Source of the DNA: a virus
Taxonomy: Duplodnaviria > Caudoviricetes
Strand: one strand, 5' to 3'
DNA: 64,000 bases
IMG/VR virus record: IMGVR_UViG_3300020577_005688
Coordinates: 77,351 to 141,350 of that record
The notes under the pieces are model-generated. The model was given only the letters and a program-made list of their open reading frames with translations. It was not told where the DNA came from and searched no databases. Position numbers and translations under genes: made by a program. This document shows positions 4,100 to 63,386 of this stretch, piece after piece. How positions within the stretch are numbered: position 1 is the first letter of the stretch; each line of letters begins with the position of its first letter.

Positions 4100-4494
4100 G
4101 ATCGACAAACTTCAAGTCTGCCATCGTCATCACTCCACCTCCAAAAGGGAGTACCATGACGGCTCTGGCGCACAGTGAGTGGTTGCTCCGTCCATTCATG
4201 CTTGGAGCGGGGCTCGCAAAAATCAGTCAGAAGAAAATCAAGATGCTCCTTCAGCACGACTTGAAGCGAGACGTTTTCGCTATCTCCGTCTCCTTCGGGA
4301 AAGAAGAGACAGTCGTCTATCACAAGAATCCCAAGAAGGTCTTTGCTGCTGCGAGTTCTTGGATTGCCCAACAAACAGCGGCAGAGATTGGAGCGGTGAG
4401 AGATGAACCGAAACAAACGAAAGAGCGTCCTTCAGGAGAGACGGGCAGCAGAGGACATCGGAGGAAGAATTCAACCAGGGTCAGGAGCACCTGA
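4096..4494 (+). CDS. hypothetical protein
   Basis: ATGA overlap with the recA stop; overlaps the next gene by about 90 nt. Confidence 0.4.
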   Translation: MRSTNFKSAIVITPPPKGSTMTALAHSEWLLRPFMLGAGLAKISQKKIKMLLQHDLKRDVFAISVSFGKEETVVYHKNPKKVFAAASSWIAQQTAAEIGAVRDEPKQTKERPSGETGSRGHRRKNSTRVRST

Positions 4495-48811: not shown

Positions 48812-49069
48812 ATGGAACTGATGAGTTCTGAACAGCAGACATTCCGAGGCGAGATCGCCGTCATGGACGGAACCGGTGACTCGAAGTTCATGTGGGACCC
48901 GAAGAACCCTGACGAGGTCGCGGCTGCGAAGGCACAGTTCGATGCGCTGAAGAAGAAGGGATACATCGCATTCACCGTCGACAAGAAGGGAGATAAGGGG
49001 GAGATCATCCGTGAGTTCGATCCAGAGCTCGAAAAGATCATCATGACTCCTCCGATTGCCGGAGGGTGA
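48812..49069 (+). CDS. hypothetical protein ending in IAGG
   Basis: SD GAGG; D.TGD.K..WD...EV..A...F...KGY.AF...FDP...PPIAGG. Confidence 0.7.
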   Translation: MELMSSEQQTFRGEIAVMDGTGDSKFMWDPKNPDEVAAAKAQFDALKKKGYIAFTVDKKGDKGEIIREFDPELEKIIMTPPIAGG

Positions 49070-49070
49070 C

Positions 49071-49979
49071 ATGAGAAGCTCAGGTGCGGAGAGGTTCAAA
49101 CCTTCCATCGGAGAGAGGCTCAGACAGTCCTCAGAAGACAAGAAGTTGAGAGGATCCAGGAGGCCCAAGAAGGAAAAGCCAGAACCACAACCTCCTCAAC
49201 CTGCGCCAATCGGCCCAACTCTCGTCTCAATCACAACCAACAATCCCGACGGATTCTTCAGGCCTGGGGGTGGTATCATCCGAATCAGAACTGCAACAAC
49301 AGACTGTAACAACACCGTCTGGTATCAGTGGACGCAGACTGGTTGCACTGGAGATACGTGGGACCAGTGGCAGTCACTTCCCATCACCCTCACCACAACA
49401 AGCGCTTCTACTGTGTGGGAGTCTTGGGTCGATACAGGCACTGGACGCGGGAATCGGCTTCTCAGACCAGATCCACGACCGATTACACGAGCGGCTCCCA
49501 GACCCGCAATCGAAGTCATCGAAACTGAAGAGGAGAGAAGGAGACGGAACGAGCAGTTCGAGCGCTTCCGCCGTGAGGAAGAAGAGAAGAATCGCAAAAT
49601 CCGTGAGGCGTACGGACGAGCGATGGATCTCCTGAAGAGTTGCTTGAACAATGAACAGCGGGACTCTTTGGAGAAATCGAAGTTCTTCTACGTCACTGCA
49701 CCGTCTGGTCGTAAGTACAGAATCGATGAAGGGACGCACGGAAATCTCAAGGTTGTGAACAAAGAAGGAAGAGTCATCGAAAGACTCTGCGTTCAGCCGA
49801 ATGATGTGCCAGCGGGAGACGCAATGCTGGTACAGAAACTCATGATCGAAACTGCAGAAGACGCTCTCCGGAGACATGCCAACATCACGTTGGAGAATGG
49901 GCAGATGTTGTACGGAGATCGAGCTCTTCTCGACAACCAGAAGCTCGCAGACATCATCCCCATCAGGAGAGCAGGGTGA
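49071..49979 (+). CDS. hypothetical protein
   Basis: SD GGAGG; C-terminal globular domain (F.V...SGR.YRI...LC.QP...P.GD..L.QKL). Confidence 0.7.
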   Translation: MRSSGAERFKPSIGERLRQSSEDKKLRGSRRPKKEKPEPQPPQPAPIGPTLVSITTNNPDGFFRPGGGIIRIRTATTDCNNTVWYQWTQTGCTGDTWDQWQSLPITLTTTSASTVWESWVDTGTGRGNRLLRPDPRPITRAAPRPAIEVIETEEERRRRNEQFERFRREEEEKNRKIREAYGRAMDLLKSCLNNEQRDSLEKSKFFYVTAPSGRKYRIDEGTHGNLKVVNKEGRVIERLCVQPNDVPAGDAMLVQKLMIETAEDALRRHANITLENGQMLYGDRALLDNQKLADIIPIRRAG

Positions 49980-54523: not shown

Positions 54524-54597
54524 ACGGCAGAAGCCCCACTGGTAAGGGTACGGGCCTCCAAAACCCGCCGCTACAGGTTCGAATCCTGTCTGCCGTG
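54524..54597 (+). tRNA. tRNA-Trp(CCA)
   Basis: Acceptor ACGGCAG/CTGCCGT, loop CT-CCA-AA, T-loop TTCGAAT; no encoded CCA end. Confidence 0.88.
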
Positions 54598-54598
54598 C

Positions 54599-54898
54599 AT
54601 GGAATCTCTAGAATGCGCTCTCACTTACAATCCCCAAGGATGGGGAATCTCAGACATTGAGTCTGTGGCACTTGCAATCGACAACTCACACGAGAAGGAT
54701 GAACCAGACTACACCTGGATTCTCGGAATGAAGTCTGGAGAGTGGTACGCTGTACGTGGGTGGCACGATTACACCGGATGGGATTGTCAGTCTGGTTTGA
54801 GCACGGAGAAATACAAAACAAGAGAAGAAGCGTTCGCAACTCTTGTTGACTGGGAACGAGACATCGTAGAGAAGAACGCGGTCGTAGCTCAGAGGTAG
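54599..54898 (+). CDS. hypothetical protein (starts 2 nt after tRNA-Trp, stop inside tRNA-Gly)
   Basis: 99 aa; W....MKSG.W....GWHDYTGWDCQ motif. Confidence 0.65.
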   Translation: MESLECALTYNPQGWGISDIESVALAIDNSHEKDEPDYTWILGMKSGEWYAVRGWHDYTGWDCQSGLSTEKYKTREEAFATLVDWERDIVEKNAVVAQR

Positions 54899-54949
54899 AG
54901 CGTCTGCTTGCCATGCAGAAGGACGAGGGTTCAATTCCCTCCGGCCGCT
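54878..54949 (+). tRNA. tRNA-Gly(GCC)
   Basis: GCGGTCG/CGGCCGC, TCTGC-TTGCCAT-GCAGA. Confidence 0.92.
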
Positions 54950-54955
54950 TCATAT

Positions 54956-55038
54956 GGGGATGTTGAGAGTAAGGTCACTCGGTTAGACTGTAAATCTGAC
55001 GTCTTCGGAACAACTCGGTTCGAGTCCGAGCATCCCCA
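54956..55038 (+). tRNA. tRNA-Tyr(GTA)
   Basis: GGGGATG/CATCCCC, CT-GTA-AA, long variable arm. Confidence 0.88.
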
Positions 55039-55141
55039 ACGCGAACTCTCAGACGGAAATCTGAGAGAGTTCATTGAAATTCGAATAGTAGTGGCATTGT
55101 CTTCTGGATTGGTTCTGTCCTCTCCAGTCTGGAAGACATTT

Positions 55142-55214
55142 GCGTCCATAGCTCAATCGGTAGAGCAAGCGCCTCTTAAGCGCGAGGTTGTGGGTTCAAT
55201 TCCCTCTGGACGCA
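55142..55214 (+). tRNA. tRNA-Lys(CTT)
   Basis: GCGTCCA/TGGACGC, CT-CTT-AA. Confidence 0.92.
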
Positions 55215-55215
55215 C

Positions 55216-55404
55216 ATGAGTGATGAAAAGAAGGAAGGCTGGGGTGTCTTGAATCTCGTGACAAAGAAGTACGAGCAGGCCAAGAAGACGAAGAAGGAGG
55301 CGATGGAAGTCGTTGACGACTTGAACTCAGTAAGCACCGCCTTGAAGTCGGAGACAAGGTACGCAGTCATTCCTGGCAAATTCAGCGAGGATCTCTTCAA
55401 GTGA
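55216..55404 (+). CDS. hypothetical protein
   Basis: ATG 2 nt after tRNA-Lys; coupled to the next gene. Confidence 0.6.
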   Translation: MSDEKKEGWGVLNLVTKKYEQAKKTKKEAMEVVDDLNSVSTALKSETRYAVIPGKFSEDLFK

Positions 55405-55652
55405 AATACGAGATTGTCAGTACCGAAGTGTTCATCTACCCACTTGGATTCGACATTCATTGGGTCGCAAAGAACTGGGCAGCCCTTCCTGGGAGCCCAC
55501 TCAGGGATATGCCGGTGTCCGGCATTTTGTCGTTTCAAAAGACTCGCGACGGTTTCACGAAAGTCAATACTGAGACCATGGGCGAGGAGTTTTGTACTGC
55601 GGTCCTTACTCAGTTTCTTCGAGACTCTCTGAAAGAGAGCGAGGAAAAGTGA
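55401..55652 (+). CDS. hypothetical protein
   Basis: GTGA coupling. Confidence 0.55.
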   Translation: MKYEIVSTEVFIYPLGFDIHWVAKNWAALPGSPLRDMPVSGILSFQKTRDGFTKVNTETMGEEFCTAVLTQFLRDSLKESEEK

Positions 55653-55891
55653 AGAAACTTCTAAGTGATAAGAAGAAGGTGGAGTTCATTCGCATCTGGA
55701 GTGACTGGTTCTACGACCACTCTTCTTCTTACCGAGGAGCACTCGGAGTTCAATTGGCCTATCTTTGGCCCGCAATAATCAGAGAACACCAAATCGAAGT
55801 CTCAGAAAGGAGCGCCATCGTGAAATTGCTTCGTAAACAGAAGGTAGCTCCAGACTCCGACATTTGGGGCTACCTAGACATCGTCGGATAA
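55649..55891 (+). CDS. hypothetical protein
   Basis: GTG with SD GAGG; stop 2 nt before tRNA-Lys(TTT). Confidence 0.55.
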   Translation: MKKLLSDKKKVEFIRIWSDWFYDHSSSYRGALGVQLAYLWPAIIREHQIEVSERSAIVKLLRKQKVAPDSDIWGYLDIVG

Positions 55892-55892
55892 G

Positions 55893-55965
55893 GGATCCAT
55901 AGCTCAGTAGGTAGAGCAGCGGACTTTTAATCCGAGGGTCGTGGGTTCGAGCCCCACTGGATCCA
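55893..55965 (+). tRNA. tRNA-Lys(TTT)
   Basis: GGATCCA/TGGATCC, CT-TTT-AA. Confidence 0.93.
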
Positions 55966-55966
55966 T

Positions 55967-56694
55967 TCTCACATTGTTGGAGGACCAATGGCTTGAGATA
56001 ACCTTTTAAACGTGGCGCATCCGAAACGCTCTGGCTTGGTGTAAGCGAGCTGAAGTGGTCAGCCCTCTCAAATCAAACCATGTACCGGTGTCGATATCGA
56101 GAGACGCACAAACTCTGCAGTACTCGTCAAGGCGTGGCTGAGCGGACCGTCGACTTATCAATCGATAGGCGGGATGGCACCTGCCGAAAATCCAGGGCAA
56201 AAATTCTAAGACGAGAGAGTTGAGGAGAGAACTCGCGATTCTCAGTAGGCGAGTTGGATGTTGGCCAGCATATAATTTGACTGAAACCTTTGAGATAGAT
56301 TGACTCCAATGATCATTACACAATGCGAGGCGCTCGGGACTGTGGTGTAAGCGAGCCGTGTTGACCCACGCGGTGGGCCGACGACATACGGACAACGGGG
56401 AAGGAACAGTCGAGACTACATGTTGACCGGGATCCGCCCCTCCTCCAAAGGAGACAGGCGTGAAGGTCGGGGTGAGAGCAATCACTGCGGATAGTTTCTC
56501 CGTTTACGCACAGGGCCGACAGTCCGGGTATTTACCGGAAGTTGGCTTGGGGATGCAGAGGTCGCGTTCTGCACTGGAACGAGCATAGCAGCTCCCAACA
56601 TGAGTGGAGCTAAAGAAGTGAACATCTTTCCCTCATATCTCAGCCTATTGTACATCCATGCGTGTACACTATGTTACTGGGATATTGAGGCATC
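55967..56694 (+). ncRNA. large (~730 nt) structured non-coding RNA candidate (GOLLD/ROOL-like context)
   Basis: No + strand ORF of 60 aa or more; many helices with G-U pairs; 14-nt direct repeat TGGTGTAAGCGAGC; bounded by tRNAs. Confidence 0.6.
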
Positions 56695-56695
56695 T

Positions 56696-56766
56696 GCGGG
56701 TGTAGCTCAATGGTAGAGCCACAGCCTTCCAAGCTGAGGACGAGGGTTCGATTCCCTCTACCCGCT
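56696..56766 (+). tRNA. tRNA-Gly(TCC)
   Basis: GCGGGTG/TACCCGC, CT-TCC-AA. Confidence 0.92.
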
Positions 56767-56780
56767 CTCTCTCAAGACAC

Positions 56781-56852
56781 AATTGATTCGTCTAGTGGTT
56801 AGGATACTGCCCCTTGAAGGCAGTGACGTTGGTTCGAATCCAACATCGAGAG
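56781..56852 (+). pseudogene. degenerate tRNA-Gln(TTG)
   Basis: Intact D, anticodon and T arms, but C33 (loop CC-TTG-AA) and unpaired acceptor positions 1-2. Confidence 0.65.
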
Positions 56853-56854
56853 TG

Positions 56855-57003
56855 AGGCGAGAATTCTGCATCGTGAGGTGCAGACAAAGAGTACCGCATT
56901 ACTGAAGCGTGAAACCTTCTGGAAGTGCGGAGGCAAGGGGGCCATGAGTACACGAACATCTTCGTGTATTGAATCCCCTAGGTCTCCAAGGTACTCTTTG
57001 CCT
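56855..57003 (+). ncRNA. ~150-nt multi-stem structured RNA candidate
   Basis: Perfect 11-bp CAAAGAGTACC/GGTACTCTTTG enclosing two hairpins; GTGA-capped hairpin 5' of it. Confidence 0.5.
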
Positions 57004-57065
57004 ACGGGACTTAGTGGTAAGACAAGAATCGAGAGGTATTCGGTTCTCACAAGAAGAGTCGACAA

Positions 57066-57329
57066 ATGGGCGTTCGTGCGAAGATGCGTTGTGTCGAAGT
57101 GTCAGAGAGAACCAGCGTGACTGGGGCCGGTCTTGTCGAAGCGAAGTACATCCGTCTCCAAGCTGTGTACGGTGGAGACGACGACAAGGAGAACAGGGAC
57201 TGGTCGAAGTGGACACCCTCAGGAGAGTTGGCAATGACAGTCACCAACCCTGACGCCTTCAATCAGTTCAAGATCGGCAAGTGCTACTTCATCGACATGA
57301 ATGAAGTCATCGTCGAGCCAGTCAAGTAG
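57066..57329 (+). CDS. conserved-type phage hypothetical protein
   Basis: VRAK.RC...L.AVY...EN..WSKWTPSG.L.M...NP.A...F..GK.Y..D. Confidence 0.75.
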   Translation: MGVRAKMRCVEVSERTSVTGAGLVEAKYIRLQAVYGGDDDKENRDWSKWTPSGELAMTVTNPDAFNQFKIGKCYFIDMNEVIVEPVK

Positions 57330-57437
57330 TTCAGATCGTCAGCAAACCCGTGCCCTGCGAAGAGCGATTGGCCTTGGTGATTCCACAAGAGTCTCTACGG
57401 GAATGTCGCGAGCCCCGGCGAAACTGGGGTGTAGTTT

Positions 57438-57510
57438 TGGAGAGTGGCGCAATTGGTAGCGCAGTGGATTCTGACTCCAAAGGTTGAAGGTTCAAGTCCT
57501 TCCTCTCCAG
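57438..57510 (+). tRNA. tRNA-Gln(CTG)
   Basis: TGGAGAG/CTCTCCA, TT-CTG-AC. Confidence 0.88.
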
Positions 57511-57511
57511 C

Positions 57512-57916
57512 ATGACCATTCAATACAAGAAGGACGCTTTTGTTTTTGTGTTTGGAAGTAACCTTGCCGGTGTACATGGGGCTGGGGCTGCTCTCTTTGC
57601 GAGAAGGCATAGAGGTGCAGTACCTGGGCAAGGAGTGGGGCCACAAGGAGAGTCGTACGCCATCCCAACCAAAGACGAGAGAATCGAGACTCTCCCTTTG
57701 GAACTCATCAAACCTCACATCGAAGACTTCTTTCGATACGCGGCGGCCAACCCGACAGTCTTGTTTCAAGTGACTCGAATCGGATGCGGTCTCGCCGGAT
57801 TTACAGACGAGCAAATTGCTCCGTTGTTCAAGACTGCACCCAAGAACTGCATCATGCCACTTGAGTGGCTTCCATTCGTTGGAGACTTCAAAACGTGGGG
57901 TTCATTTGACGCTTGA
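57512..57916 (+). CDS. A1S_2505-type phage protein (macrodomain-like)
   Basis: VFVFGSNLAGVHGAGAA...SYAIPTK...FQVTRIGCGLAGF..EQIAPLF. Confidence 0.8.
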   Translation: MTIQYKKDAFVFVFGSNLAGVHGAGAALFARRHRGAVPGQGVGPQGESYAIPTKDERIETLPLELIKPHIEDFFRYAAANPTVLFQVTRIGCGLAGFTDEQIAPLFKTAPKNCIMPLEWLPFVGDFKTWGSFDA

Positions 57917-58205
57917 AAGCATCCCGACCGACGTTCCTCAGATTTGCCCAAAGTGTGACTACGTGTTCGATCACGTCACTGCCGCCGACTCGGAGATGGG
58001 GAAACCGTCACCAGGAGACTTCTCCATCTGCCTCAACTGTGGGGTCGTTCTTCAGTTCAGTGAGAACATGACACAAGTAGATGCGTCCCCAGAAGACTTC
58101 GAGAAGCTCGAAGAAGGCGACAAGACTCTCATCTTGCGGATTGTCCACGCAGTGAAGAGTAGTCCGAGCTTCGGAAAACTCGTCCGAAGAGACAAGATTC
58201 AGTGA
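57906..58205 (+). CDS. small zinc-finger protein
   Basis: CPKC...PGDFSICLNCG; start uncertain (TTG 57906). Confidence 0.6.
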   Translation: MTLESIPTDVPQICPKCDYVFDHVTAADSEMGKPSPGDFSICLNCGVVLQFSENMTQVDASPEDFEKLEEGDKTLILRIVHAVKSSPSFGKLVRRDKIQ

Positions 58206-58212
58206 GCAGTAT

Positions 58213-58285
58213 TGGGGTGTAGCTCAATTGGTAGAGCGGCGGACTTTGAATCCGTAGGTTCTAGGTTCAAGCCCTAGCACCCCAG
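58213..58285 (+). tRNA. tRNA-Gln(TTG)
   Basis: TGGGGTG/CACCCCA, CT-TTG-AA. Confidence 0.92.
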
Positions 58286-58289
58286 TAGA

Positions 58290-58361
58290 GCCGACGTAGC
58301 ACAACGGTAGTGCATCTGATTTGTAATCAGGAGGTTGTCGGTTCAAATCCGACCGTCGGCA
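58290..58361 (+). tRNA. tRNA-Thr(TGT)
   Basis: GCCGACG/CGTCGGC, TT-TGT-AA. Confidence 0.92.
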
Positions 58362-58375
58362 TAGGCGTAGTGATG

Positions 58376-58384
58376 TGGTATAGT
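58376..58384 (+). promoter_or_regulatory. extended -10 promoter (leaderless geometry)
   Basis: TG-G-TATAGT ends 6 nt before ATG 58391; no SD. Confidence 0.5.
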
Positions 58385-58390
58385 AGCGGT

Positions 58391-58756
58391 ATGTCCAAGA
58401 AAATCCTCATCGTCGAAGACGACGAATCAGTTCAGATTCTACTCAAGCTCTTCTTGATTCGATTGAGCCACAACATCATCGAAGCAAAGAACGGACTTGA
58501 GGGAATCGGGATGGCGAGACAGTTCAAACCGGACGTCATCATTGCGGACTTGAACATGCCTATCTTGGATGGGATTGAGATGTTGAAGGTCTTGAAGGCA
58601 GACCCATCAACTTCCCATATTCCAGTTGTAATCTTCACTGGGTCTTCAGGCGAGCAGCAGCAGAGAGCATCTGAGGCAGGAGCCGTCACTGTTCTCTCAA
58701 AGCCCATCTCAAGACAAGACCTCATTCAGGTCATCGACTCAGTTCTTCAGAAGTAA
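58391..58756 (+). CDS. single-domain response regulator (CheY-like receiver)
   Basis: ILIVEDD, phospho-Asp in IADLNMP..DG, IFT, SKP. Confidence 0.9.
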   Translation: MSKKILIVEDDESVQILLKLFLIRLSHNIIEAKNGLEGIGMARQFKPDVIIADLNMPILDGIEMLKVLKADPSTSHIPVVIFTGSSGEQQQRASEAGAVTVLSKPISRQDLIQVIDSVLQK

Positions 58757-58831
58757 GTATCTCAAGCTAATCTGGTGAAAGCGACAGGCTGTTAACCTGT
58801 GTCAAGCAGGGTTCGATCCCCTGGAGATACG
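58757..58831 (+). tRNA. tRNA-Asn(GTT)
   Basis: GTATCTC/GAGATAC, ACAGG-CTGTTAA-CCTGT; A at position 8. Confidence 0.85.
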
Positions 58832-58834
58832 CAC

Positions 58835-58866
58835 GGCGTGGTTGCCAAGTGGGAAGGCGTCGGTCT
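58835..58866 (+). pseudogene. 5' half of a tRNA (Cys-like), broken at the anticodon loop
   Basis: GGCGTGG-TT-GCC-AAGTGGGAA-GGC-G-TCGGT-CT, then unrelated sequence; no 3' half found. Confidence 0.6.
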
Positions 58867-58879
58867 AGGATCCTGTCCT

Positions 58880-59374
58880 ATGACCAGAACCATTAAAAGA
58901 CCAGGAGTCGCGAAGGCAAACGTTGCCCGTCGTGAAGCGACGGATTCTAGTACAAGGATGAACGCACTCTACGAGTGGGAGAAATGGAAGCAGAATCCAC
59001 ATTTCACACTCGGGCTTGGTCTGTACATAGGAGAAGGGACTAAGACTCACCGAGAGTTAGTGTTCACAAACGCAGACCCTAACGTCATGCGTCTCTGGCA
59101 AGCGTGGTGCTCCGTATTCCTTCCAGAAGTGCCAATGAGTCTCTCCATCCAGATACCAACGGACGTGGATCCTTCAGAAGCTAAGAGGTTCTGGAAGAGA
59201 AGGCTTGGAATGGTACCTAGAATCTACCAAAGCAAAGGTGGGACAAAAGGGGTCGGGAAATTTAAGCATCGAAAGCTACCATTCGGAACAGCTCGTCTGA
59301 GAGCCGGAGTCGGTGGAACAGACGCGTTCGTGAAAATGGAATACTGGATCTCTCTTTGCCTTATGACCACATAG
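58880..59374 (+). CDS. LAGLIDADG-like homing endonuclease
   Basis: LGLGLYIGEGTK helix followed by LVFTNADP, as in single-motif LAGLIDADG-like proteins. Confidence 0.6.
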   Translation: MTRTIKRPGVAKANVARREATDSSTRMNALYEWEKWKQNPHFTLGLGLYIGEGTKTHRELVFTNADPNVMRLWQAWCSVFLPEVPMSLSIQIPTDVDPSEAKRFWKRRLGMVPRIYQSKGGTKGVGKFKHRKLPFGTARLRAGVGGTDAFVKMEYWISLCLMTT

Positions 59375-59395
59375 CGTGCTTCCGAGTGAGACCTC

Positions 59396-59626
59396 ATGGA
59401 CATCCTGAAGCTCGTTGTCTTGATACAGAGGTACAAATCCCTGTATGGGAAAGTTCAAGTAGTAACCATAGACAAAAGAGTTCCTGCTGGGAGCGGCGTA
59501 GCCTTCGTAGATACCAACAGCCTATTTACTCTTGCAGTGGATTCTGAAGAAAGTCGCCTCGTAGCCATAGACCTTCTTGAAGAGAAAAACCTCGTTGAAC
59601 TCAAAGGAGAGACCGCCATGACATAA
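59396..59626 (+). CDS. hypothetical protein
   Basis: 76-aa ORF. Confidence 0.45.
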   Translation: MDILKLVVLIQRYKSLYGKVQVVTIDKRVPAGSGVAFVDTNSLFTLAVDSEESRLVAIDLLEEKNLVELKGETAMT

Positions 59627-59644
59627 CCCTAACAAGAGGTTGTC

Positions 59645-59818
59645 ATGAAGAGAGGTCAGCAGTTCGGAACCTTCATCCGTGGTAAGGCTCGACTTCGAAA
59701 GAACAAGAAGAAAGAACTCAGTCGAGCAGAGAGGACTGAAGCGAAGAGGCAGTTGAAGAAAAACCCAGAAGAGGTAGAGACGAAACCTCGAAGGCGATAC
59801 TGGGGGTATGACGACTAA
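59645..59818 (+). CDS. 57-aa basic protein (below ORF-track cutoff)
   Basis: SD GAGG; MKRGQQFG...RRRYWGYDD*. Confidence 0.55.
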   Translation: MKRGQQFGTFIRGKARLRKNKKKELSRAERTEAKRQLKKNPEEVETKPRRRYWGYDD

Positions 59819-59824
59819 GAAGTA

Positions 59825-59897
59825 GGCCCCATCTTCTAATGGCTAGGATGCTAGATTCTCAATCTGGCGATCGAGGGTTCAAATCCCCGTGGGGTCA
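59825..59897 (+). tRNA. tRNA-Glu(CTC)
   Basis: GGCCCCA/TGGGGTC, TT-CTC-AA. Confidence 0.9.
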
Positions 59898-59899
59898 AC

Positions 59900-60250
59900 A
59901 TGAAATCCGGCATACACAGGAGCACACGAGCGAAGAGGCTCGCAGAGGTCCGAGCAGTCCATAAAGAAATAAACGACAGAACGGGCCTTATCGATTTTGA
60001 GGGAGCGGGGTATATCCCAGAGTCAGCGCATTCGTTCTTTCCTGGAGTAGATCGGATTGCCACGTACCCGGTCACTGACATGTGGAGTGCTATCCACTCA
60101 CTTCAGGTACTGGATGAACTTGATGAGTTCGAGCAGAGTGCATTGAGTGATTCGCATCGATTCGATGCAGGAGTGGCGAGCTTGATGCGTCGATATGACG
60201 AAGTGAGAGAACCCGAAACTGGTCATTGGTTTATCGGCCCTATCGACTAA
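59900..60250 (+). CDS. hypothetical protein (starts 3 nt after tRNA-Glu(CTC), stop inside tRNA-Glu(TTC))
   Basis: 116-aa ORF filling the space between two tRNAs. Confidence 0.55.
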   Translation: MKSGIHRSTRAKRLAEVRAVHKEINDRTGLIDFEGAGYIPESAHSFFPGVDRIATYPVTDMWSAIHSLQVLDELDEFEQSALSDSHRFDAGVASLMRRYDEVREPETGHWFIGPID

Positions 60251-60307
60251 AGGTTAGGTCGCCACCCTTTCAAGGTGTGAATCCGGGTTCGAATCCCGGT
60301 AGGGTCA
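60236..60307 (+). tRNA. tRNA-Glu(TTC)
   Basis: GGCCCTA/TAGGGTC, CT-TTC-AA. Confidence 0.9.
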
Positions 60308-60321
60308 TCTGAACGAAGTAT

Positions 60322-60395
60322 CTGGGTATAGCTCAGTTTGGTAGAGCGCTTGCCTTGGGCGCAAGAGGCCGCTGGTTCGAATCCAGCTACCCAGA
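60322..60395 (+). tRNA. tRNA-Pro(TGG)
   Basis: CTGGGTA/TACCCAG, CT-TGG-GC. Confidence 0.92.
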
Positions 60396-60396
60396 C

Positions 60397-60630
60397 ATGA
60401 AGACAGCAGAGAAGGAAGCAATTTGGGTGTGGCGTTTTGAGGATGCTCCAGAAGAGTATCAAGCTCTCTCAAACAATGGAGGAGATGAGGACTGGCTTGC
60501 AGTTGTGCCTTCCTCCTTCAAGGGAGTTTGGATTCCGTGGCTCGAAGGTGGGTCACCTTTCGGAGTCTGCGACGTCCAGATTTACACTCTGGAGAGTGGG
60601 CACCAAGTCTACATCGGGTCTCATTCATGA
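60397..60630 (+). CDS. hypothetical protein
   Basis: ATG 2 nt after tRNA-Pro; W.F.DAPE.YQ.LS.NGGDEDWLA motif. Confidence 0.65.
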   Translation: MKTAEKEAIWVWRFEDAPEEYQALSNNGGDEDWLAVVPSSFKGVWIPWLEGGSPFGVCDVQIYTLESGHQVYIGSHS

Positions 60631-60830
60631 AGTACGTACACACGAAGACCGGCAACATCTACGAAGTCCTCTCAAAAGAAGCTAAACACACGGAGACTCT
60701 CGAAGAGCTCGTTGTGTATAGGAGCCTCAAAGATGGCCGAGTTTGGGTGCGGCCACATGTGATGTTCTTCGGCTCCGTGAAAATCAATGGGGAGGAAGTT
60801 CCTCGGTTCCAGCCCATGTTCGAGGAGTGA
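60627..60830 (+). CDS. DUF1653-family protein
   Basis: Y.H.K.G..Y.V...A.HTET.EELVVY......WVRP..MF. Confidence 0.85.
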   Translation: MKYVHTKTGNIYEVLSKEAKHTETLEELVVYRSLKDGRVWVRPHVMFFGSVKINGEEVPRFQPMFEE

Positions 60831-60832
60831 AG

Positions 60833-61183
60833 ATGGCAAAAAGAAAACTGGGACTCTACTTCGACAAGAACGGAGTCGAGATCTCAATGCAGGAGATGGC
60901 GGCTCTAAGAGCCAACGAAGAGTACTCAACGATTCGGAGAACGGTCCTTCCGAATGGTTCTCTAGTCTCCACCGTGTGGCTTGGAATCGACCATGGATAC
61001 CAGTCGCCGGTACCCATCGTGTTCGAGACCATGAGCTTCAAGAGGGGCGAGAGTGGGGAGATCGATTGGGGTGGGGTCCACTCAAATCGTTACGCTACAG
61101 AGGAAGAGGCAATCAAAGGCCACGAAGAAATCGTGAAGCTGATGATGGAAGAAATCCCGCCACGTTCGATCGATCTGACATGA
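60833..61183 (+). CDS. conserved-type phage hypothetical protein
   Basis: SD GAGGAG; VSTVWLG.DH...P..FETM.F...RY.T.EEA..GH. Confidence 0.75.
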   Translation: MAKRKLGLYFDKNGVEISMQEMAALRANEEYSTIRRTVLPNGSLVSTVWLGIDHGYQSPVPIVFETMSFKRGESGEIDWGGVHSNRYATEEEAIKGHEEIVKLMMEEIPPRSIDLT

Positions 61184-61461
61184 CCAAAAAGCTCCGACCA
61201 ACAGACCTTCCGAAGTTCAGGCCAGGAGACAAGGTCATCCTCCAGCACGCAGATAAGGATGACCCCGAAGCTGCAGAGTTCGGAATCATGACGGGGAGGG
61301 AGTACGGAGTCATCGTTGCTACTTGGTGGGATGACTTCCTTGGAGCATATGACTGTTGGATTGCGTTCTACGGAAAAAGAGGCTTTCCGAAAGACCCTAG
61401 CAAGACAAAACCGTACATCTTGAAGTACTTCGAGACGAGCCTCACTGCGTGGAAGAAATGA
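61180..61461 (+). CDS. hypothetical protein (SH3/KOW-like)
   Basis: PKFRPGDKV; ATGA coupling. Confidence 0.6.
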   Translation: MTKKLRPTDLPKFRPGDKVILQHADKDDPEAAEFGIMTGREYGVIVATWWDDFLGAYDCWIAFYGKRGFPKDPSKTKPYILKYFETSLTAWKK

Positions 61462-61667
61462 GACTGAGCCTACGGTTCTTCAAATCAAGTGACGGGAAGT
61501 TCGGGTACAACTCAATCTTCGTTGGAGAGTTCAAGGAGAGGGAGCTGTGGTTTCAAACTCTGCCAATGAGTGAGTGGTACATCGGTCCTCGGCAGGTGTG
61601 GTACGACGGACCCATCAAGCTCTTTGGATTCGGGTTCTGCGAGTTTCTATGGCACTACCCAATGTGA
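61458..61667 (+). CDS. hypothetical protein
   Basis: ATGA coupling; aromatic-rich 69 aa. Confidence 0.5.
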   Translation: MRLSLRFFKSSDGKFGYNSIFVGEFKERELWFQTLPMSEWYIGPRQVWYDGPIKLFGFGFCEFLWHYPM

Positions 61668-61861
61668 AACGAAATCAACCCCAAGAACCTATCAAGCTCA
61701 GTGATGGGGTTGAGCCATGCGGAAAGCTCGGATGTGCCAGTCTTGCAGTGTTTGGCTACAGACTTTGTAGACCTCACATTGAAGAATGGAGAAAGAGCAA
61801 AGAGGCGTCAGAGAAAGTCTACGACCTCAGACCGCTCTTCGAGCAATGGCGGAAGAGATGA
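61664..61861 (+). CDS. small Cys/His protein
   Basis: GTGA coupling; C...GC......LC..H. Confidence 0.45.
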   Translation: MKRNQPQEPIKLSDGVEPCGKLGCASLAVFGYRLCRPHIEEWRKSKEASEKVYDLRPLFEQWRKR

Positions 61862-61866
61862 AGGAT

Positions 61867-61937
61867 GCGCCCGTAGTACAATGGTAGTACAATCGCCTGA
61901 TAAGCGATAAACGAAAGTTCGATTCTTTCCGGGCGCA
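61867..61937 (+). tRNA. tRNA-Ile(GAT)
   Basis: GCGCCCG/CGGGCGC, ATCGC-CTGATAA-GCGAT. Confidence 0.9.
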
Positions 61938-62018
61938 CTGTGGTCTCCTGAACTCGACATACGGAGGTGCTGGGAGCGTAAGCAGGGATGGCTGTCCCGG
62001 CCACACCAATGTATAAAT

Positions 62019-62091
62019 GGCGTTGTTCGTCTAATGGCTAGGACACGAGATTGTGGATCTCGTTATACGGGTTCGACTCCCGTACATCGCC
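62019..62091 (+). tRNA. tRNA-His(GTG)
   Basis: G-1:C73 identity pair, CGAGA-TTGTGGA-TCTCG. Confidence 0.9.
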
Positions 62092-62092
62092 C

Positions 62093-62233
62093 TGATTTAC
62101 CCGGCCGAAGAGTCCCTACACGCAAACTATCTAGGTTCGAGTCCTAGTTCTCGCGAAAGCGAAAATAGCCTAAGGGTAAGGCATCTGACTCTTAATCAGA
62201 CCAAACTTGTGGATTCCTCACTCGGGTGAATCA
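62093..62233 (+). ncRNA. Y-RNA (YrlA)-like RNA containing a circularly permuted tRNA-Lys(CTT) module
   Basis: Outer stem TGATTTACCCG/CGGGTGAATCA with GCCGAAG; inside, in order: T arm, acceptor stem capped by GAAA, D arm, anticodon arm; T-run after. Confidence 0.7.
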
Positions 62234-62249
62234 ATTTTTAAGTCGCAGA

Positions 62250-62321
62250 GGTTCGTTACGCATCTGGTGAGGCGACCGCCCTGTCACGGCGATGAGATGG
62301 GTTCAATTCCCATACGAACCG
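62250..62321 (+). tRNA. tRNA-Asp(GTC)
   Basis: GGTTCGT/ACGAACC, CT-GTC-AC. Confidence 0.88.
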
Positions 62322-62403
62322 TTCGAGCTAAATGTCAGACCACCTCGGTATAAGGAGGTTGGCGAGCATATCGTTCGCCTTCAACCAACACGAGGGGAAG
62401 TTC

Positions 62404-63276
62404 ATGTCCAAGAAGAAGATCCCGACGAAGACGGAGACGTTCAACAAGGAGAAGGCCGAGCAGACGGTGAAGGCTGCCTCCAACGTGACGATCGAAGGTG
62501 CTGTCAAGAAGATCACCGAGGTGAACCTCACCATCGGCAAGACGTTGAACGATGTCAGCCAGCAGCTCACGCAGCAGGTCAACGAGTTCACCAACATCTC
62601 GACGGCGGTCGAACTCAAGAAGACGGAGCTCGAACAGCTGCACGAGAAGGAGCTCGTTCTCCAGGACATCGAAGACCTCAAGGCACAGAAGGCCGAAGAA
62701 GAAGCGGCATACGAGACCCGTCGCATCGAGCTCGCCAACGAGCACGCGCGAGAGAAGAAGCAGTGGGAGTACGACTTCAGCATCGAAACCCGCAACAGGA
62801 ATGACGAGCTGAACGAGCAGATTCGCCTCAAGAAGCTCGAAGAGCGGAATCGCCAGGACGACCTCGAACGTGAGTGGAAGCGTCGTGGTGAAGAGCTGAC
62901 GGCCAGGGAGACCGAGTTCATGAACCTGAAGGCTCAGGTCGCCACCTTCCCCGAGAAGCTCGAAGCGGAGAAGAAGGAAGCCTCCAACGCTGCTGCCGCT
63001 GCGGTCAGGCGCGACTACGACCACAAGCTCGCCCTCCTGGAGAAGGACCGTGCCACGGAAAACCAGATCAACCTGTCGAAGATCGCGCAGCTCACCGACA
63101 CCAACAACAAGCTGGCTGCTCAGCTTTCTGCTGCCGAGGCTCGCATCGCCGAGAGCGAGCGGAACGTGAAGTCGATCGCCGAGAAGGCGCTGGAGAGCTC
63201 GGGTTCTCAGAAGACCCTGTCGGAGCTCCAGCTCATGCAGAACTCGCCGAACGGCTCCAACCGCAAGACGGTGTAA
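62404..63276 (+). CDS. long coiled-coil protein
   Basis: SD GAGGGG before ATG 62404; E/K/R-rich heptads; strongly G/C-ending codons. Confidence 0.8.
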   Translation: MSKKKIPTKTETFNKEKAEQTVKAASNVTIEGAVKKITEVNLTIGKTLNDVSQQLTQQVNEFTNISTAVELKKTELEQLHEKELVLQDIEDLKAQKAEEEAAYETRRIELANEHAREKKQWEYDFSIETRNRNDELNEQIRLKKLEERNRQDDLEREWKRRGEELTARETEFMNLKAQVATFPEKLEAEKKEASNAAAAAVRRDYDHKLALLEKDRATENQINLSKIAQLTDTNNKLAAQLSAAEARIAESERNVKSIAEKALESSGSQKTLSELQLMQNSPNGSNRKTV

Positions 63277-63283
63277 GAAGCAC

Positions 63284-63311
63284 AACCTGGAGGTCACTCC
63301 TCCAGGTTTTT
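63284..63311 (+). terminator. intrinsic terminator
   Basis: AACCTGGAGG-TCACT-CCTCCAGGTT followed by TTT. Confidence 0.8.
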
Positions 63312-63312
63312 A

Positions 63313-63385
63313 GCCAGTATCGCGTAGGTGGTCCGCGCGTCTGCCTGAAGAGCAGAAGGAGACTGTTCGATTCAGTCTACTGGCA
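63313..63385 (+). tRNA. tRNA-Phe(GAA)
   Basis: GCCAGTA/TACTGGC, TCTGC-CTGAAGA-GCAGA. Confidence 0.88.
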
Positions 63386-63386
63386 C

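What the first reader, a model, noticed from the sequence alone, without database searches (positions are those of the whole stretch)
62093..62233. Circularly permuted, un-chargeable tRNA-Lys(CTT) mounted on a Y-RNA-like stem
Seen, 5' to 3': T arm CTAGG-TTCGAGT-CCTAG (62131-62147); acceptor 3' strand TTCTCGC, GAAA tetraloop and acceptor 5' strand GCGAAAA (62148-62165); TA; D arm GCCT-AAGGGTA-AGGC; anticodon arm TCTGA-CT-CTT-AA-TCAGA (62184-62200). The cloverleaf is opened at the variable loop and enclosed by TGATTTACCCG...CGGGTGAATCA plus GAGTCC/GGATTC, with GCCGAAG at 62104-62110. It begins 2 nt after tRNA-His and ends at a T-run. Established (from memory): bacterial YrlA Y RNAs have a Ro60/Rsr-binding stem with a GNCGAAN(0-1)G motif and a permuted T/acceptor/D module. 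Unusual here: a full Lys anticodon arm is retained. No Ro60 gene is in this window. Inference: a phage Y RNA that recruits Ro60/RNA-repair machinery, or a decoy for tRNA-Lys anticodon nucleases (PrrC- or AriB-type defences).
Basis: partly seen in the sequence, partly recalled or inferred. Interest (0 to 1): 0.88.

Follow-up and report, generated by a model that had tools for sequence, protein, structure and literature searches.

The report
Orphan phage Y RNA, full-cloverleaf type
This 141-nt phage gene encodes an inside-out tRNA look-alike on a conserved stem, one member of a large, apparently uncatalogued class of Y RNAs that in myxobacteria sit beside the gene of a cryptic Ro60-like ring protein; this phage carries only the RNA, so it probably acts on a Ro60-like protein made by its unidentified host.

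Summary
The element (62093-62233, +) is not a chance fold. I found about 50 homologues, and 32 of its 41 base pairs show compensatory changes in a 37-sequence alignment. The family has an invariant "handle": terminal stem, GCCGAA-type motif, ACACGC, and CACUCGG on the 3' side. The handle encloses a tRNA body of T arm, closed acceptor, D arm and a complete anticodon-like arm. The tRNA is therefore opened in the variable region, whereas published YrlA is opened in the anticodon loop.

In Myxococcota the RNA co-occurs with a ~590-aa "VWA domain-containing protein". All 19 protein-positive genomes have the RNA, against 2 of 132 protein-negative ones. In 14 of the 19 a copy lies 9-170 nt upstream on the same strand. 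The predicted fold of that protein matches Ro60 first and over its full length.

Neither this phage contig nor its complete relative encodes TROVE, this Ro60-like protein or any vWA domain. One other ~200-kb phage encodes both the protein and the RNA.

The "Lys" triplet is incidental. The closest relative has AUU, and the family shows 18 different triplets.

Verdict: a Y RNA, a new variant of a known kind. Binding and function are inferred, not shown.

The parts
62020..62092 (+). tRNA-His(GTG) immediately upstream; its 3' processing would create the 5' end of the element
   Evidence: ARAGORN; Rfam tRNA 55.6 bits. The relative G001 has the same arrangement.
62093..62103 (+). Terminal stem, 5' strand (pairs with 62223-62233)
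   Evidence: Helix 1 covaries strongly; for example one pair shows GC:11, AU:9, CG:6, UA:4.
62104..62110 (+). GCCGAAG, a GNCGAAN0-1G-type motif. The family-invariant G-C and A-U pairs to the 3' strand lie inside an internal loop.
   Evidence: The motif is defined in PMC4201824. G16-C268 is invariant in 37 of 37 sequences and A17-U267 holds in 34 of 37.
62110..62115 (+). Helix 2, 5' strand GAGTCC (pairs with GGATTC, 62211-62216)
   Evidence: G-C becomes C-G in G001.
62118..62125 (+). Single-stranded ACACGCAA. ACACGC is nearly invariant in the family and absent from canonical YrlA.
   Evidence: Alignment columns. Used as the search pattern.
62131..62147 (+). T arm CTAGG-TTCGAGT-CCTAG
   Evidence: Three of five pairs covary and the G53-C61-type pairs are invariant. 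The T loop is UUCGANU throughout the family.
62148..62165 (+). Acceptor-like hairpin, 7 bp, closed by GAAA; no free ends and no CCA
   Evidence: All 7 pairs covary. Loop length in the family is 1-46 nt.
62166..62182 (+). U8-A9 linker and D arm GCCT-AAGGGTA-AGGC
   Evidence: The position-15 to position-48 (Levitt-type) pair covaries: A:U 22, G:C 7, of 37.
62184..62200 (+). Anticodon-like arm: 5 bp plus the 7-nt loop CT-CTT-AA
   Evidence: All 5 pairs covary. In the family the loop is 7 nt in 31 of 37, has U at position 2 in 32 of 37 and A at the last position in 34 of 37, and the triplet is not conserved.
62211..62233 (+). 3' half of the handle: GGATTC (helix 2), CTCACT (family motif CACUCGG) and the terminal stem 3' strand
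62235..62239 (+). T5 run after the stem. The consensus scan does not call it a terminator.
62250..62321 (+). tRNA-Asp(GTC) downstream; the element is embedded in the phage tRNA array

Best explanation
The element is a stand-alone small RNA gene of the Y RNA kind. A conserved handle closes a complete tRNA-shaped body. The handle consists of the terminal stem, a GCCGAA-type internal loop with two invariant pairs, helix 2, ACACGC on the 5' side and CACUCGG on the 3' side. The body's acceptor stem is sealed by a loop, and its chain is opened in the variable region. The RNA is made as part of the phage tRNA-array transcript and released by tRNA-end processing of tRNA-His and tRNA-Asp (inferred). 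The handle is the docking site of a Ro60-type ring protein (inferred from synteny and co-occurrence). The tRNA-shaped body presents a tRNA surface to a second, tRNA-recognising factor, as proposed for YrlA (inferred by analogy). The phage encodes no Ro60-type protein. Its RNA therefore most likely loads onto, or titrates, a Ro60-like protein of the host during infection and redirects or blocks that protein's RNA-surveillance activity. Shown here: the fold, its covariation, family membership, the genomic link of the family to Ro60-fold proteins, and the absence of such a protein from the phage. Not shown: the transcript, binding, the identity of the host, and the effect on infection.
For: Structure: the fold is. 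The close homologue in the complete relative G001 has compensatory changes in the T stem, acceptor stem and helix 2. Covariation holds in all five helices across 37 sequences, and there is Levitt-pair covariation.

Family: pattern searches and the covariance model found about 45 full-length copies in metagenomes and Myxococcota genomes, and 13 more in viral contigs. Family model R2 scores the window copy 139 bits (it is one of the model's training sequences), G001 118 and L048 98. TROVE-linked canonical YrlAs score 29-39 and tRNA dimers 22-27.

Partner: a conserved ~590-aa protein gene follows the RNA at 6-350 nt on the same strand in 8 loci. In a sample of 151 Myxococcota genomes the protein is present in 19, and all 19 have the RNA. 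Only 2 of the 132 others have a strong RNA hit, and 14 of the 19 have a copy 9-170 nt upstream. The protein's AlphaFold model (pLDDT 77) has Ro60/TROVE structures as its 13 best PDB matches over the full length. A profile comparison with TROVE proteins gives E 2.9e-5 over 226 collinear columns.

Other links: the same RNA type lies about 1 kb past a canonical TROVE gene on contig C175 of G043. It lies about 3.4 kb downstream of a phage-borne Ro60-like gene in G217. A more distant relative of this phage, G002, has a canonical YrlA plus TROVE.

Orphan status: no TROVE, Ro60-like protein or vWA domain in G000, in G001 (complete, with direct terminal repeats) or in G032. TROVE and the Ro60-like protein are also absent from the complete or near-complete phages G211, G213 and G220.
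Against: There is no expression, end-mapping or binding data of any kind. The host is unknown, so the presence of a Ro60-like protein in it is an assumption. Phage GC is 52%, against the high-GC myxobacterial loci (RNA copies 49-68% GC), and a phage marker protein was not found in three Myxococcota MAGs that carry tRNA arrays with the RNA. G000 is only about 75% complete, so absence of a partner gene rests on its complete relative. The Ro60 assignment of the partner rests on a predicted fold (TM 0.4-0.6) and a modest profile score; Pfam sees only the vWA domain. Some bacterial copies lie far from the protein gene (G046), so synteny is not universal.
Confidence: 0.65

Rival explanations
1. Decoy or sensor for anticodon nucleases. 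The exposed anticodon-like loop draws tRNA-cleaving defence enzymes away from real tRNAs, or reports their activity.
For: The loop keeps anticodon-loop geometry across the family: 7 nt in 31 of 37, U at position 2 in 32 of 37, A at the last position in 34 of 37. Tandem copies in one locus carry different triplets. One related phage (G213) has CU-UUU-AA.
Against: The triplet is not conserved even between the two closest phages (CUU against AUU). Several triplets are not used by bacterial tRNAs (AUG, AUU and AGA, all with A34). L048 has a non-anticodon loop. The invariant parts of the family are the handle motifs, which a decoy would not need. A Lys-specific version (PrrC, AriB) has no support.
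Confidence: 0.1
2. The conserved handle binds some other protein, phage or host, not a Ro60-type ring. The link to Ro60-like genes holds for bacteria but does not carry over to this phage.
For: The phage has no Ro60-type gene. Most phages that carry the RNA lack one. Two Myxococcota genomes have the RNA without the protein.
Against: The handle of the phage copy is nearly identical to that of the gene-adjacent bacterial copies, which are its best matches (L055, L073, L078, L074 and L095 at 86-99 bits). No alternative conserved neighbour was found next to the phage copies.
Confidence: 0.12
3. A passenger with no role in the phage. The RNA travelled with a block of tRNA genes acquired from a host or another element and is merely tolerated.
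For: The family is embedded in tRNA arrays of similar gene order in several contigs (Glu-Pro-...-Ile-His-Asp). tRNA dimers can give rise to such folds (model discussed).
Against: G000 and G001 keep the fold through compensatory changes. At least eight large phage genomes retain one to three copies.
Confidence: 0.08
4. A circularly permuted tRNA gene that is processed into a working tRNA-Lys(CUU).
For: All tRNA core features are present: 7-bp acceptor, U8, a GG-containing D loop, a T loop, and a 7-nt loop with U33. Mycobacterium smegmatis YrlA can be cut by RNase P and receive CCA (PMC4201824).
Against: The phage already has tRNA-Lys(CTT) and tRNA-Lys(TTT). The relative carries AUU. No CCA is encoded, acceptor loops range from 1 to 46 nt, and no RtcB is present. 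A bacterial counterpart of the archaeal/eukaryal splicing endonuclease has not been reported. The invariant handle would be discarded in such a pathway, yet it is the best-conserved part.
Confidence: 0.03

Closest known systems
YrlA (Y RNA-like A; Rfam RF02553; Chen et al. 2014, PMC4201824; structure in Wang et al. 2018, bioRxiv 10.1101/312249)
   Same: Both are small RNAs with a terminal stem carrying a GNCGAAN0-1G-type motif. Both have a circularly permuted tRNA-like module with T arm, loop-closed acceptor stem, UA and D arm. Both occur in bacteria and phages, next to Ro60-type genes on the same strand. Tandem Y RNA copies beside Ro60 also occur.
   Different: YrlA is opened in the anticodon loop. 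Its anticodon stem runs into the Ro60-binding stem, it has no anticodon loop, and it has a V hairpin 5' of the T arm. Here the chain is opened in the variable region and a complete anticodon-like arm is kept. The V hairpin is replaced by single-stranded ACACGCAA, and the 3' side carries CACUCGG. The Rfam model matches only the T/acceptor/D core (19 bits against a gathering score of 69). The usual partner is a protein that Pfam's TROVE model does not detect.
Deinococcus radiodurans Yrn1 Y RNA
   Same: It is a Ro60 (Rsr)-bound RNA with tRNA-like features, and it can be drawn with an anticodon-like arm (PMC4201824).
   Different: [quoted passage not shown] Here the order is T, acceptor, D, anticodon arm, and the full core is present.
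Phage Ro60/Y RNA pairs (mycobacteriophage Ro60 with YrlA, PMC4201824; Thermus phage phiLo Ro60, PMC12135203 / PDB 9l5y)
   Same: They are phage-borne components of the Ro60/Y RNA particle, often inside or beside tRNA arrays. Sixteen of 30 IMG/VR contigs hit by my first motif encode TROVE, usually within about 1 kb of a YrlA-like RNA.
   Different: Those phages encode the protein. This phage and most of its relatives carry the RNA alone.
Permuted tRNA genes of Cyanidioschyzon merolae and Thermofilum (cited in 10.1101/312249)
   Same: The 3' half of the tRNA lies upstream of the 5' half, and the acceptor stem is initially closed.
   Different: Those are processed through a circular intermediate into working tRNAs by a splicing endonuclease. 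No such pathway is reported in bacteria, and nothing here points to one.

Membership tests
YrlA (Rfam RF02553) | Score at or above the curated gathering score (69 bits) over the whole model | tested here: not met
   19.1 bits, model positions 30-81 of 114 only. Caveat: TROVE-adjacent phage YrlAs also reach only 34-50 bits.
YrlA (Rfam RF02553) | GNCGAAN0-1G motif near the 5' end within the closing stem (PMC4201824) | tested here: met
   GCCGAAG at 62104-62110. In the family the motif relaxes to NNCG(A/U)N with invariant CG.
YrlA (Rfam RF02553) | tRNA-like module of T arm, loop-closed acceptor stem, UA and D arm | tested here: met
   covariation.
YrlA (Rfam RF02553) | The closing stem takes the place of the anticodon stem, with no anticodon loop and the V arm 5' of the T arm | tested here: not met
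   The closing stem enters between the anticodon-like arm and the T arm. A 5-bp/7-nt anticodon-like arm is present and there is no V hairpin.
YrlA (Rfam RF02553) | Encoded within about 4 kb of a TROVE (Ro60/Rsr) gene on the same strand | tested here: not met
   No TROVE in G000 or in the complete relative G001.
Y RNA in the functional sense (a small RNA bound by a Ro60-type protein) | Genomic coupling of the RNA family to a Ro60-type gene | tested here: met
   Co-occurrence in 19 of 19 genomes against 2 of 132, with 14 of 19 adjacent on the same strand. The partner has a Ro60 fold. The RNA also lies beside a canonical TROVE gene in G043 and beside a phage Ro60-like gene in G217.
Y RNA in the functional sense (a small RNA bound by a Ro60-type protein) | Physical binding to the Ro60-type protein | not testable with these tools
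   Needs immunoprecipitation or gel shift.
The ACACGC/CACUCGG-handle family defined here (model R2) | Full-length match to the family covariance model, well above canonical YrlA and tRNA dimers | tested here: met
   The window copy scores 139 bits but is a training sequence. G001 scores 118 and L048 98, both also in training. Independent phage copies score 63-109 bits, against 29-39 for canonical YrlA and 22-27 for tRNA dimers.
tRNA (functional, chargeable) | Free paired 5'/3' acceptor ends with a discriminator/CCA site; detected by tRNA finders | tested here: not met
   The acceptor is closed by GAAA. ARAGORN finds nothing, and Rfam tRNA gives 23.9 bits (below 29) on a wrong register.
Permuted tRNA gene (algal/archaeal type) | Processing into a mature tRNA through a circular intermediate | not testable with these tools
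   No RtcB in the phage. The triplet is not conserved.

The most novel reading that the evidence does not exclude
The RNA is a phage counter-measure. The myxobacterial Ro60-like protein, with its downstream JAB peptidase, small protein and ThiF-like enzyme, would be an RNA-guided surveillance or defence module whose own Y RNAs gate it. Phages carry orphan copies of that RNA, a full tRNA mimic with the cognate handle, to saturate or mis-programme the host protein during infection. This would be an RNA-based anti-defence factor, and a new Y RNA architecture paired with a cryptic Ro60 family.
Probability: 0.15. Interest if true: 0.85.

Novelty: new variant of a known kind. Interest (0 to 1): 0.66.

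Why it matters
Bacterial Y RNAs have been found by looking next to genes annotated as TROVE. This element leads to a Y RNA class with a different permutation point, a complete cloverleaf including an anticodon-like arm. It also leads to a widespread Ro60-fold protein annotated only as "VWA domain-containing protein". The Ro60/Y RNA system may therefore be more widespread than annotation suggests. The family gives a natural test of which part of a Y RNA is the protein handle and which is exchangeable cargo: the same handle encloses permuted tRNA bodies, a tRNA-like body in normal order, or just a small hairpin. Phages that carry the RNA without the protein raise a testable idea, that a virus manipulates host RNA surveillance with an RNA alone. 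Cultured myxobacteria (Archangium, Hyalangium, Myxococcus) encode the protein, so experiments are feasible.

Tried and rejected
- Megablast and blastn of the region against 50,697 GenBank phages gave no match.
- A first exact pattern on the handle found nothing. A second pattern recovered only the close relative plus two chance hits in coding sequence, L002 and L004.
- The single-sequence model R1 gives 20-34-bit false hits on tandem tRNAs (window 58237-58356, L012). I recognised these as tRNA dimers and discarded them.
- Thirteen of the 22 genome-contig pattern hits and 8 of the 23 metagenome hits have no covariance-model match. This is about the number expected by chance, and I discarded them.
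- RtcB (PF01139) is absent from the phage contig.
- Host link: the phage's 450-aa marker protein (A3) was not found in three Myxococcota MAGs that carry tRNA arrays with the RNA, so I make no host claim.
- A link between the phage's ubiquitin-like gene pair (48812-49979) and the operon downstream of the bacterial Ro60-like gene has no sequence support.
- The 2026 preprint on three tRNA-mimic families (skipping-rope, DUF2693-FD, salivarius-1) covers unrelated motifs.
- The T5 run is not called a terminator by the consensus scan.
- The review PMC10870794 is not held, so I could not check whether it mentions this architecture.
- Literature searches found no paper that links Myxococcus to Ro60 or Y RNA. 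That is absence from the held library only.

Full report
**1. The observation**

The sequence at 62093-62233 is exactly as described. It contains, in order:
- an 11-bp terminal stem;
- GCCGAAG;
- a 6-bp second helix (GAGTCC/GGATTC);
- a T arm;
- a 7-bp acceptor-like stem closed by GAAA, with one C.A mismatch;
- UA;
- a D arm;
- one A;
- a 5-bp arm with the loop CU-CUU-AA.

tRNA-His ends one base before the stem, and tRNA-Asp starts 16 bases after it. RNAfold recovers this architecture (-45.3 kcal/mol, z -3.4). ARAGORN finds no tRNA here. Rfam at gathering score finds nothing. At relaxed thresholds the YrlA model matches only the T/acceptor/D core (19 bits, positions 30-81 of 114), and the tRNA model gives a sub-threshold, wrongly registered hit.

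**2. Where the window comes from**

The window is the last 64 kb of a 141-kb IMG/VR phage contig estimated at 75% complete. Earlier notes of this scan describe the phage as an uncultured ~200-kb freshwater/wastewater phage with its own RNA polymerase. I did not re-test that.

A complete relative, G001 (196.8 kb, direct terminal repeats), has the homologous element in the same place after tRNA-His. Its neighbouring proteins are 72-89% identical to those of the window phage.

The two copies differ by compensatory changes:
- T stem: CUAGG/CCUAG against GUUGG/CCAAC.
- Acceptor: a different 7-8-bp stem with a CAUA loop.
- Helix 2: G-C against C-G.

The G001 loop reads CU-AUU-AA, not Lys, and an extra small hairpin follows the arm.

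**3. Relation to canonical YrlA**

A more distant relative, G002 (complete), carries a YrlA of the published architecture in its tRNA array: stem, GCCGAAG, V hairpin, T, acceptor, D. It gives a full-length Rfam YrlA match at 36 bits. A 547-aa TROVE gene lies 4.4 kb downstream on the same strand.

A loose motif (GCCGAA..GGTTCGA..TAGCNNAA) hit 30 further IMG/VR contigs. Sixteen of them encode TROVE, usually within about 1 kb of a YrlA-like RNA. None of those RNAs reaches Rfam's gathering score. So the window's handle is of the Y RNA kind, and Rfam's threshold is too strict for phage YrlAs.

The same scan found one contig (L048, 40 kb, no TROVE) whose RNA matches the window over its full length. 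It shares two extra motifs with the window that canonical YrlAs lack: ACACGCAA eight bases after GGCCGAA, and UCACUCGGG on the 3' side.

**4. The family**

I searched metagenome and genome collections for GCCGAA-N7-9-ACACGCAA-N5-20-GGTTCGA. This gave 23 and 22 contigs.

The covariance model built from the window alone then found about 45 full-length matches (45-99 bits), often as 2-5 tandem copies. In genomes they occur only in the Myxococcota contigs: Polyangiaceae, Nannocystaceae, Myxococcaceae, Haliangiales and Kofleriaceae. The pattern hits without a model match number about what chance predicts.

A 37-sequence alignment supports every helix:
- 93.4% of cells are paired, against 32-48% when partners are slid.
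- 32 of 41 pairs have changes on both sides.
- 0 of 500 shuffles reach the observed values.

The alignment was fitted to the model, which favours the structure. The compensatory changes are nevertheless plain in the raw sequences.

Tertiary tRNA features are kept:
- The T loop is UUCGANU.
- The D loop contains GG.
- The base before the T stem covaries with D-loop position 15 (A:U 22, G:C 7, of 37).

The fourth hairpin is anticodon-like in form. It has a 5-bp stem in which all five pairs covary. The loop is 7 nt in 31 of 37, with U second in 32 of 37 and A last in 34 of 37. Its triplet is free: 18 different triplets in 31 loops, some never used by bacterial tRNAs.

The order of the arms is closing helix, T, acceptor, D, anticodon-like arm. 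The tRNA is therefore opened in the variable region. Published YrlA is opened in the anticodon loop and lacks that loop. A model of the family separates it cleanly. Window-type copies score 98-139 bits (these are training sequences) and independent phage copies 63-109. Canonical TROVE-linked YrlAs score 29-39 and tRNA dimers 22-27. No Rfam family other than tRNA reaches threshold in the bacterial loci.

**5. The partner**

In eight loci a conserved gene starts 6-350 nt after the last RNA copy on the same strand. Its ~590-aa product is annotated only as "VWA domain-containing protein". Pfam sees a C-terminal vWA domain and nothing in the first ~380 residues. The protein has over 1,100 homologues at about 70% identity across Myxococcota.

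An AlphaFold model (pLDDT 77) has Ro60/TROVE structures as its 13 best PDB matches, aligned over the full length. They include Xenopus and human Ro60, Deinococcus Rsr and Thermus phage phiLo Ro60 (E 5e-8 to 2e-6, target TM 0.42-0.61). A profile comparison with eight phage TROVE proteins gives E 2.9e-5 over 226 collinear columns. I take it to be a remote Ro60 homologue. This rests on prediction.

In a sample of 151 Myxococcota genomes:
- 19 have the protein, and all 19 have full-length RNA matches.
- Only 2 of the other 132 have a strong RNA match.
- In 14 of the 19 a copy lies 9-170 nt upstream on the same strand.

Other copies lie elsewhere, often inside tRNA arrays. On one contig of a Haliangiales MAG the same RNA type lies about 1 kb past a canonical TROVE gene inside a tRNA array.

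**6. Phages**

A handle-based pattern found the RNA in 11 more viral contigs. These include five genomes of 180-200 kb: G211, G213, G217, G218 and G220. G213 shares the window phage's marker protein.

None of them has TROVE. G217 encodes the Ro60-like protein, with three tandem RNAs about 3.4 kb downstream on the same strand. A 529-kb provirus record, G212, has the pair too.

The window phage, its complete relative G001 and L048 encode neither TROVE, nor the Ro60-like protein, nor any vWA domain. G001 has a second, divergent copy about 2.8 kb downstream. The corresponding place in this contig lies beyond its end.

**7. Reading**

The element is a Y RNA of a new architectural variant, carried as an orphan by this phage.

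The most likely mechanism has four steps:
1. The RNA is transcribed with the tRNA array.
2. It is released by tRNA-end processing.
3. The handle docks onto a Ro60-type ring protein supplied by the host.
4. The tRNA-shaped body is presented to a tRNA-recognising factor, or the RNA simply occupies the protein.

Every step after the fold is inferred. The Lys-specific decoy idea loses its basis because the triplet is not conserved. A broader decoy or sensor role for the anticodon-like loop is not excluded. A permuted-tRNA-gene reading is unlikely for three reasons: a duplicate tRNA-Lys(CTT) is already present, the acceptor loops vary in length, and the most conserved part would be thrown away.

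The host is unknown. I could not tie the phage to Myxococcota. Its GC content (52%) does not suggest that phylum.

**8. Literature**

Chen et al. 2014 (PMC4201824) and Wang et al. 2018 (10.1101/312249) define YrlA as summarised above. I found no paper in the held library that describes this architecture, or a Ro60-like protein in Myxococcota. The 2020 review by Sim and colleagues could not be read.

Within this scan, note e1-3207503 had already described a myxobacterial Ro60-like locus with Y RNAs joined to a JAB peptidase, a ubiquitin-like protein and an E1. I reproduced part of it: a JAB protein two genes downstream in three of three loci checked, and a ThiF-like protein in one.

Noticed in passing
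L065:4122-4263 (metagenome contig JADMIO011121653.1): The same handle (…CCCUACACGCAA … GGCUUGUUCACUCGGG…) encloses a tRNA-like body in normal, unpermuted order. ARAGORN calls it tRNA-Pro(tgg) at 4161-4234, but its anticodon loop is abnormal (C33, U37). The handle is the constant part and the tRNA-shaped cargo can be inserted in either permutation.
   Followed up: partly
L055:8158-8231 and L098:1574-1691: These are minimal or odd family members. One is a 74-nt copy with the handle around a single small hairpin. The other is a 118-nt copy with non-tRNA cargo. They recall YrlB-type short Y RNAs beside YrlA.
   Followed up: no
L034, L035, L041, L042, L046 (TROVE-linked phage YrlAs): The V hairpin of canonical phage YrlAs often has a 7-nt loop of anticodon-loop form (CUGUUAA, CUUGUAA, CUGCUAA). 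Rfam's YrlA gathering score (69 bits) misses all of these TROVE-adjacent RNAs, which score 34-50 bits.
   Followed up: partly
L078:2981-7172; L099; L101 (Myxococcota): The operon after the Y RNAs runs: Ro60-like protein, then a conserved 330-455-aa protein with no Pfam hit, then a small JAB-domain protein (three of three loci), then in L078 a 91-aa protein and a ThiF-like protein.
   Followed up: partly
window 48812-49979: The phage's ubiquitin-like protein (ending PPIAGG) and its partner, noted earlier by the scan, sit 12 kb from the Y RNA. Since the bacterial Ro60-like operon also has ubiquitin-type genes, I compared them and found no sequence similarity.
   Followed up: partly
window 54524-63386 versus L065, L079, L094: tRNA arrays with embedded Y RNAs share gene order (…Glu, Pro, [Y], Pro, [Y], Ile, His, Asp…) between this phage, a 59.7-kb metagenome contig and contigs binned into Myxococcales MAGs. 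One array has an HNH gene between its tRNAs. This suggests a mobile array module.
   Followed up: partly
window 60236-60307 and L065:6651-6723: ARAGORN calls a 72-nt tRNA with anticodon TCA (labelled SeC) in the window, and a tRNA with anticodon TTA in L065. These are possible stop-codon suppressor tRNAs in phage arrays.
   Followed up: no
window 56783-56849: Rfam tRNA match (45.4 bits, model positions 3-68) that ARAGORN does not call, right after tRNA-Gly(tcc).
   Followed up: no
L003:1895-2042 (G001), L104:8150-8299 (G211), L113:347-499 (G220): A second subtype of the family occurs in the large phages (handle CCGGCAGUACAGCGCACACACGCAAA … UGUACACUCGG). It appears to lack the anticodon-like hairpin.
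   Followed up: no
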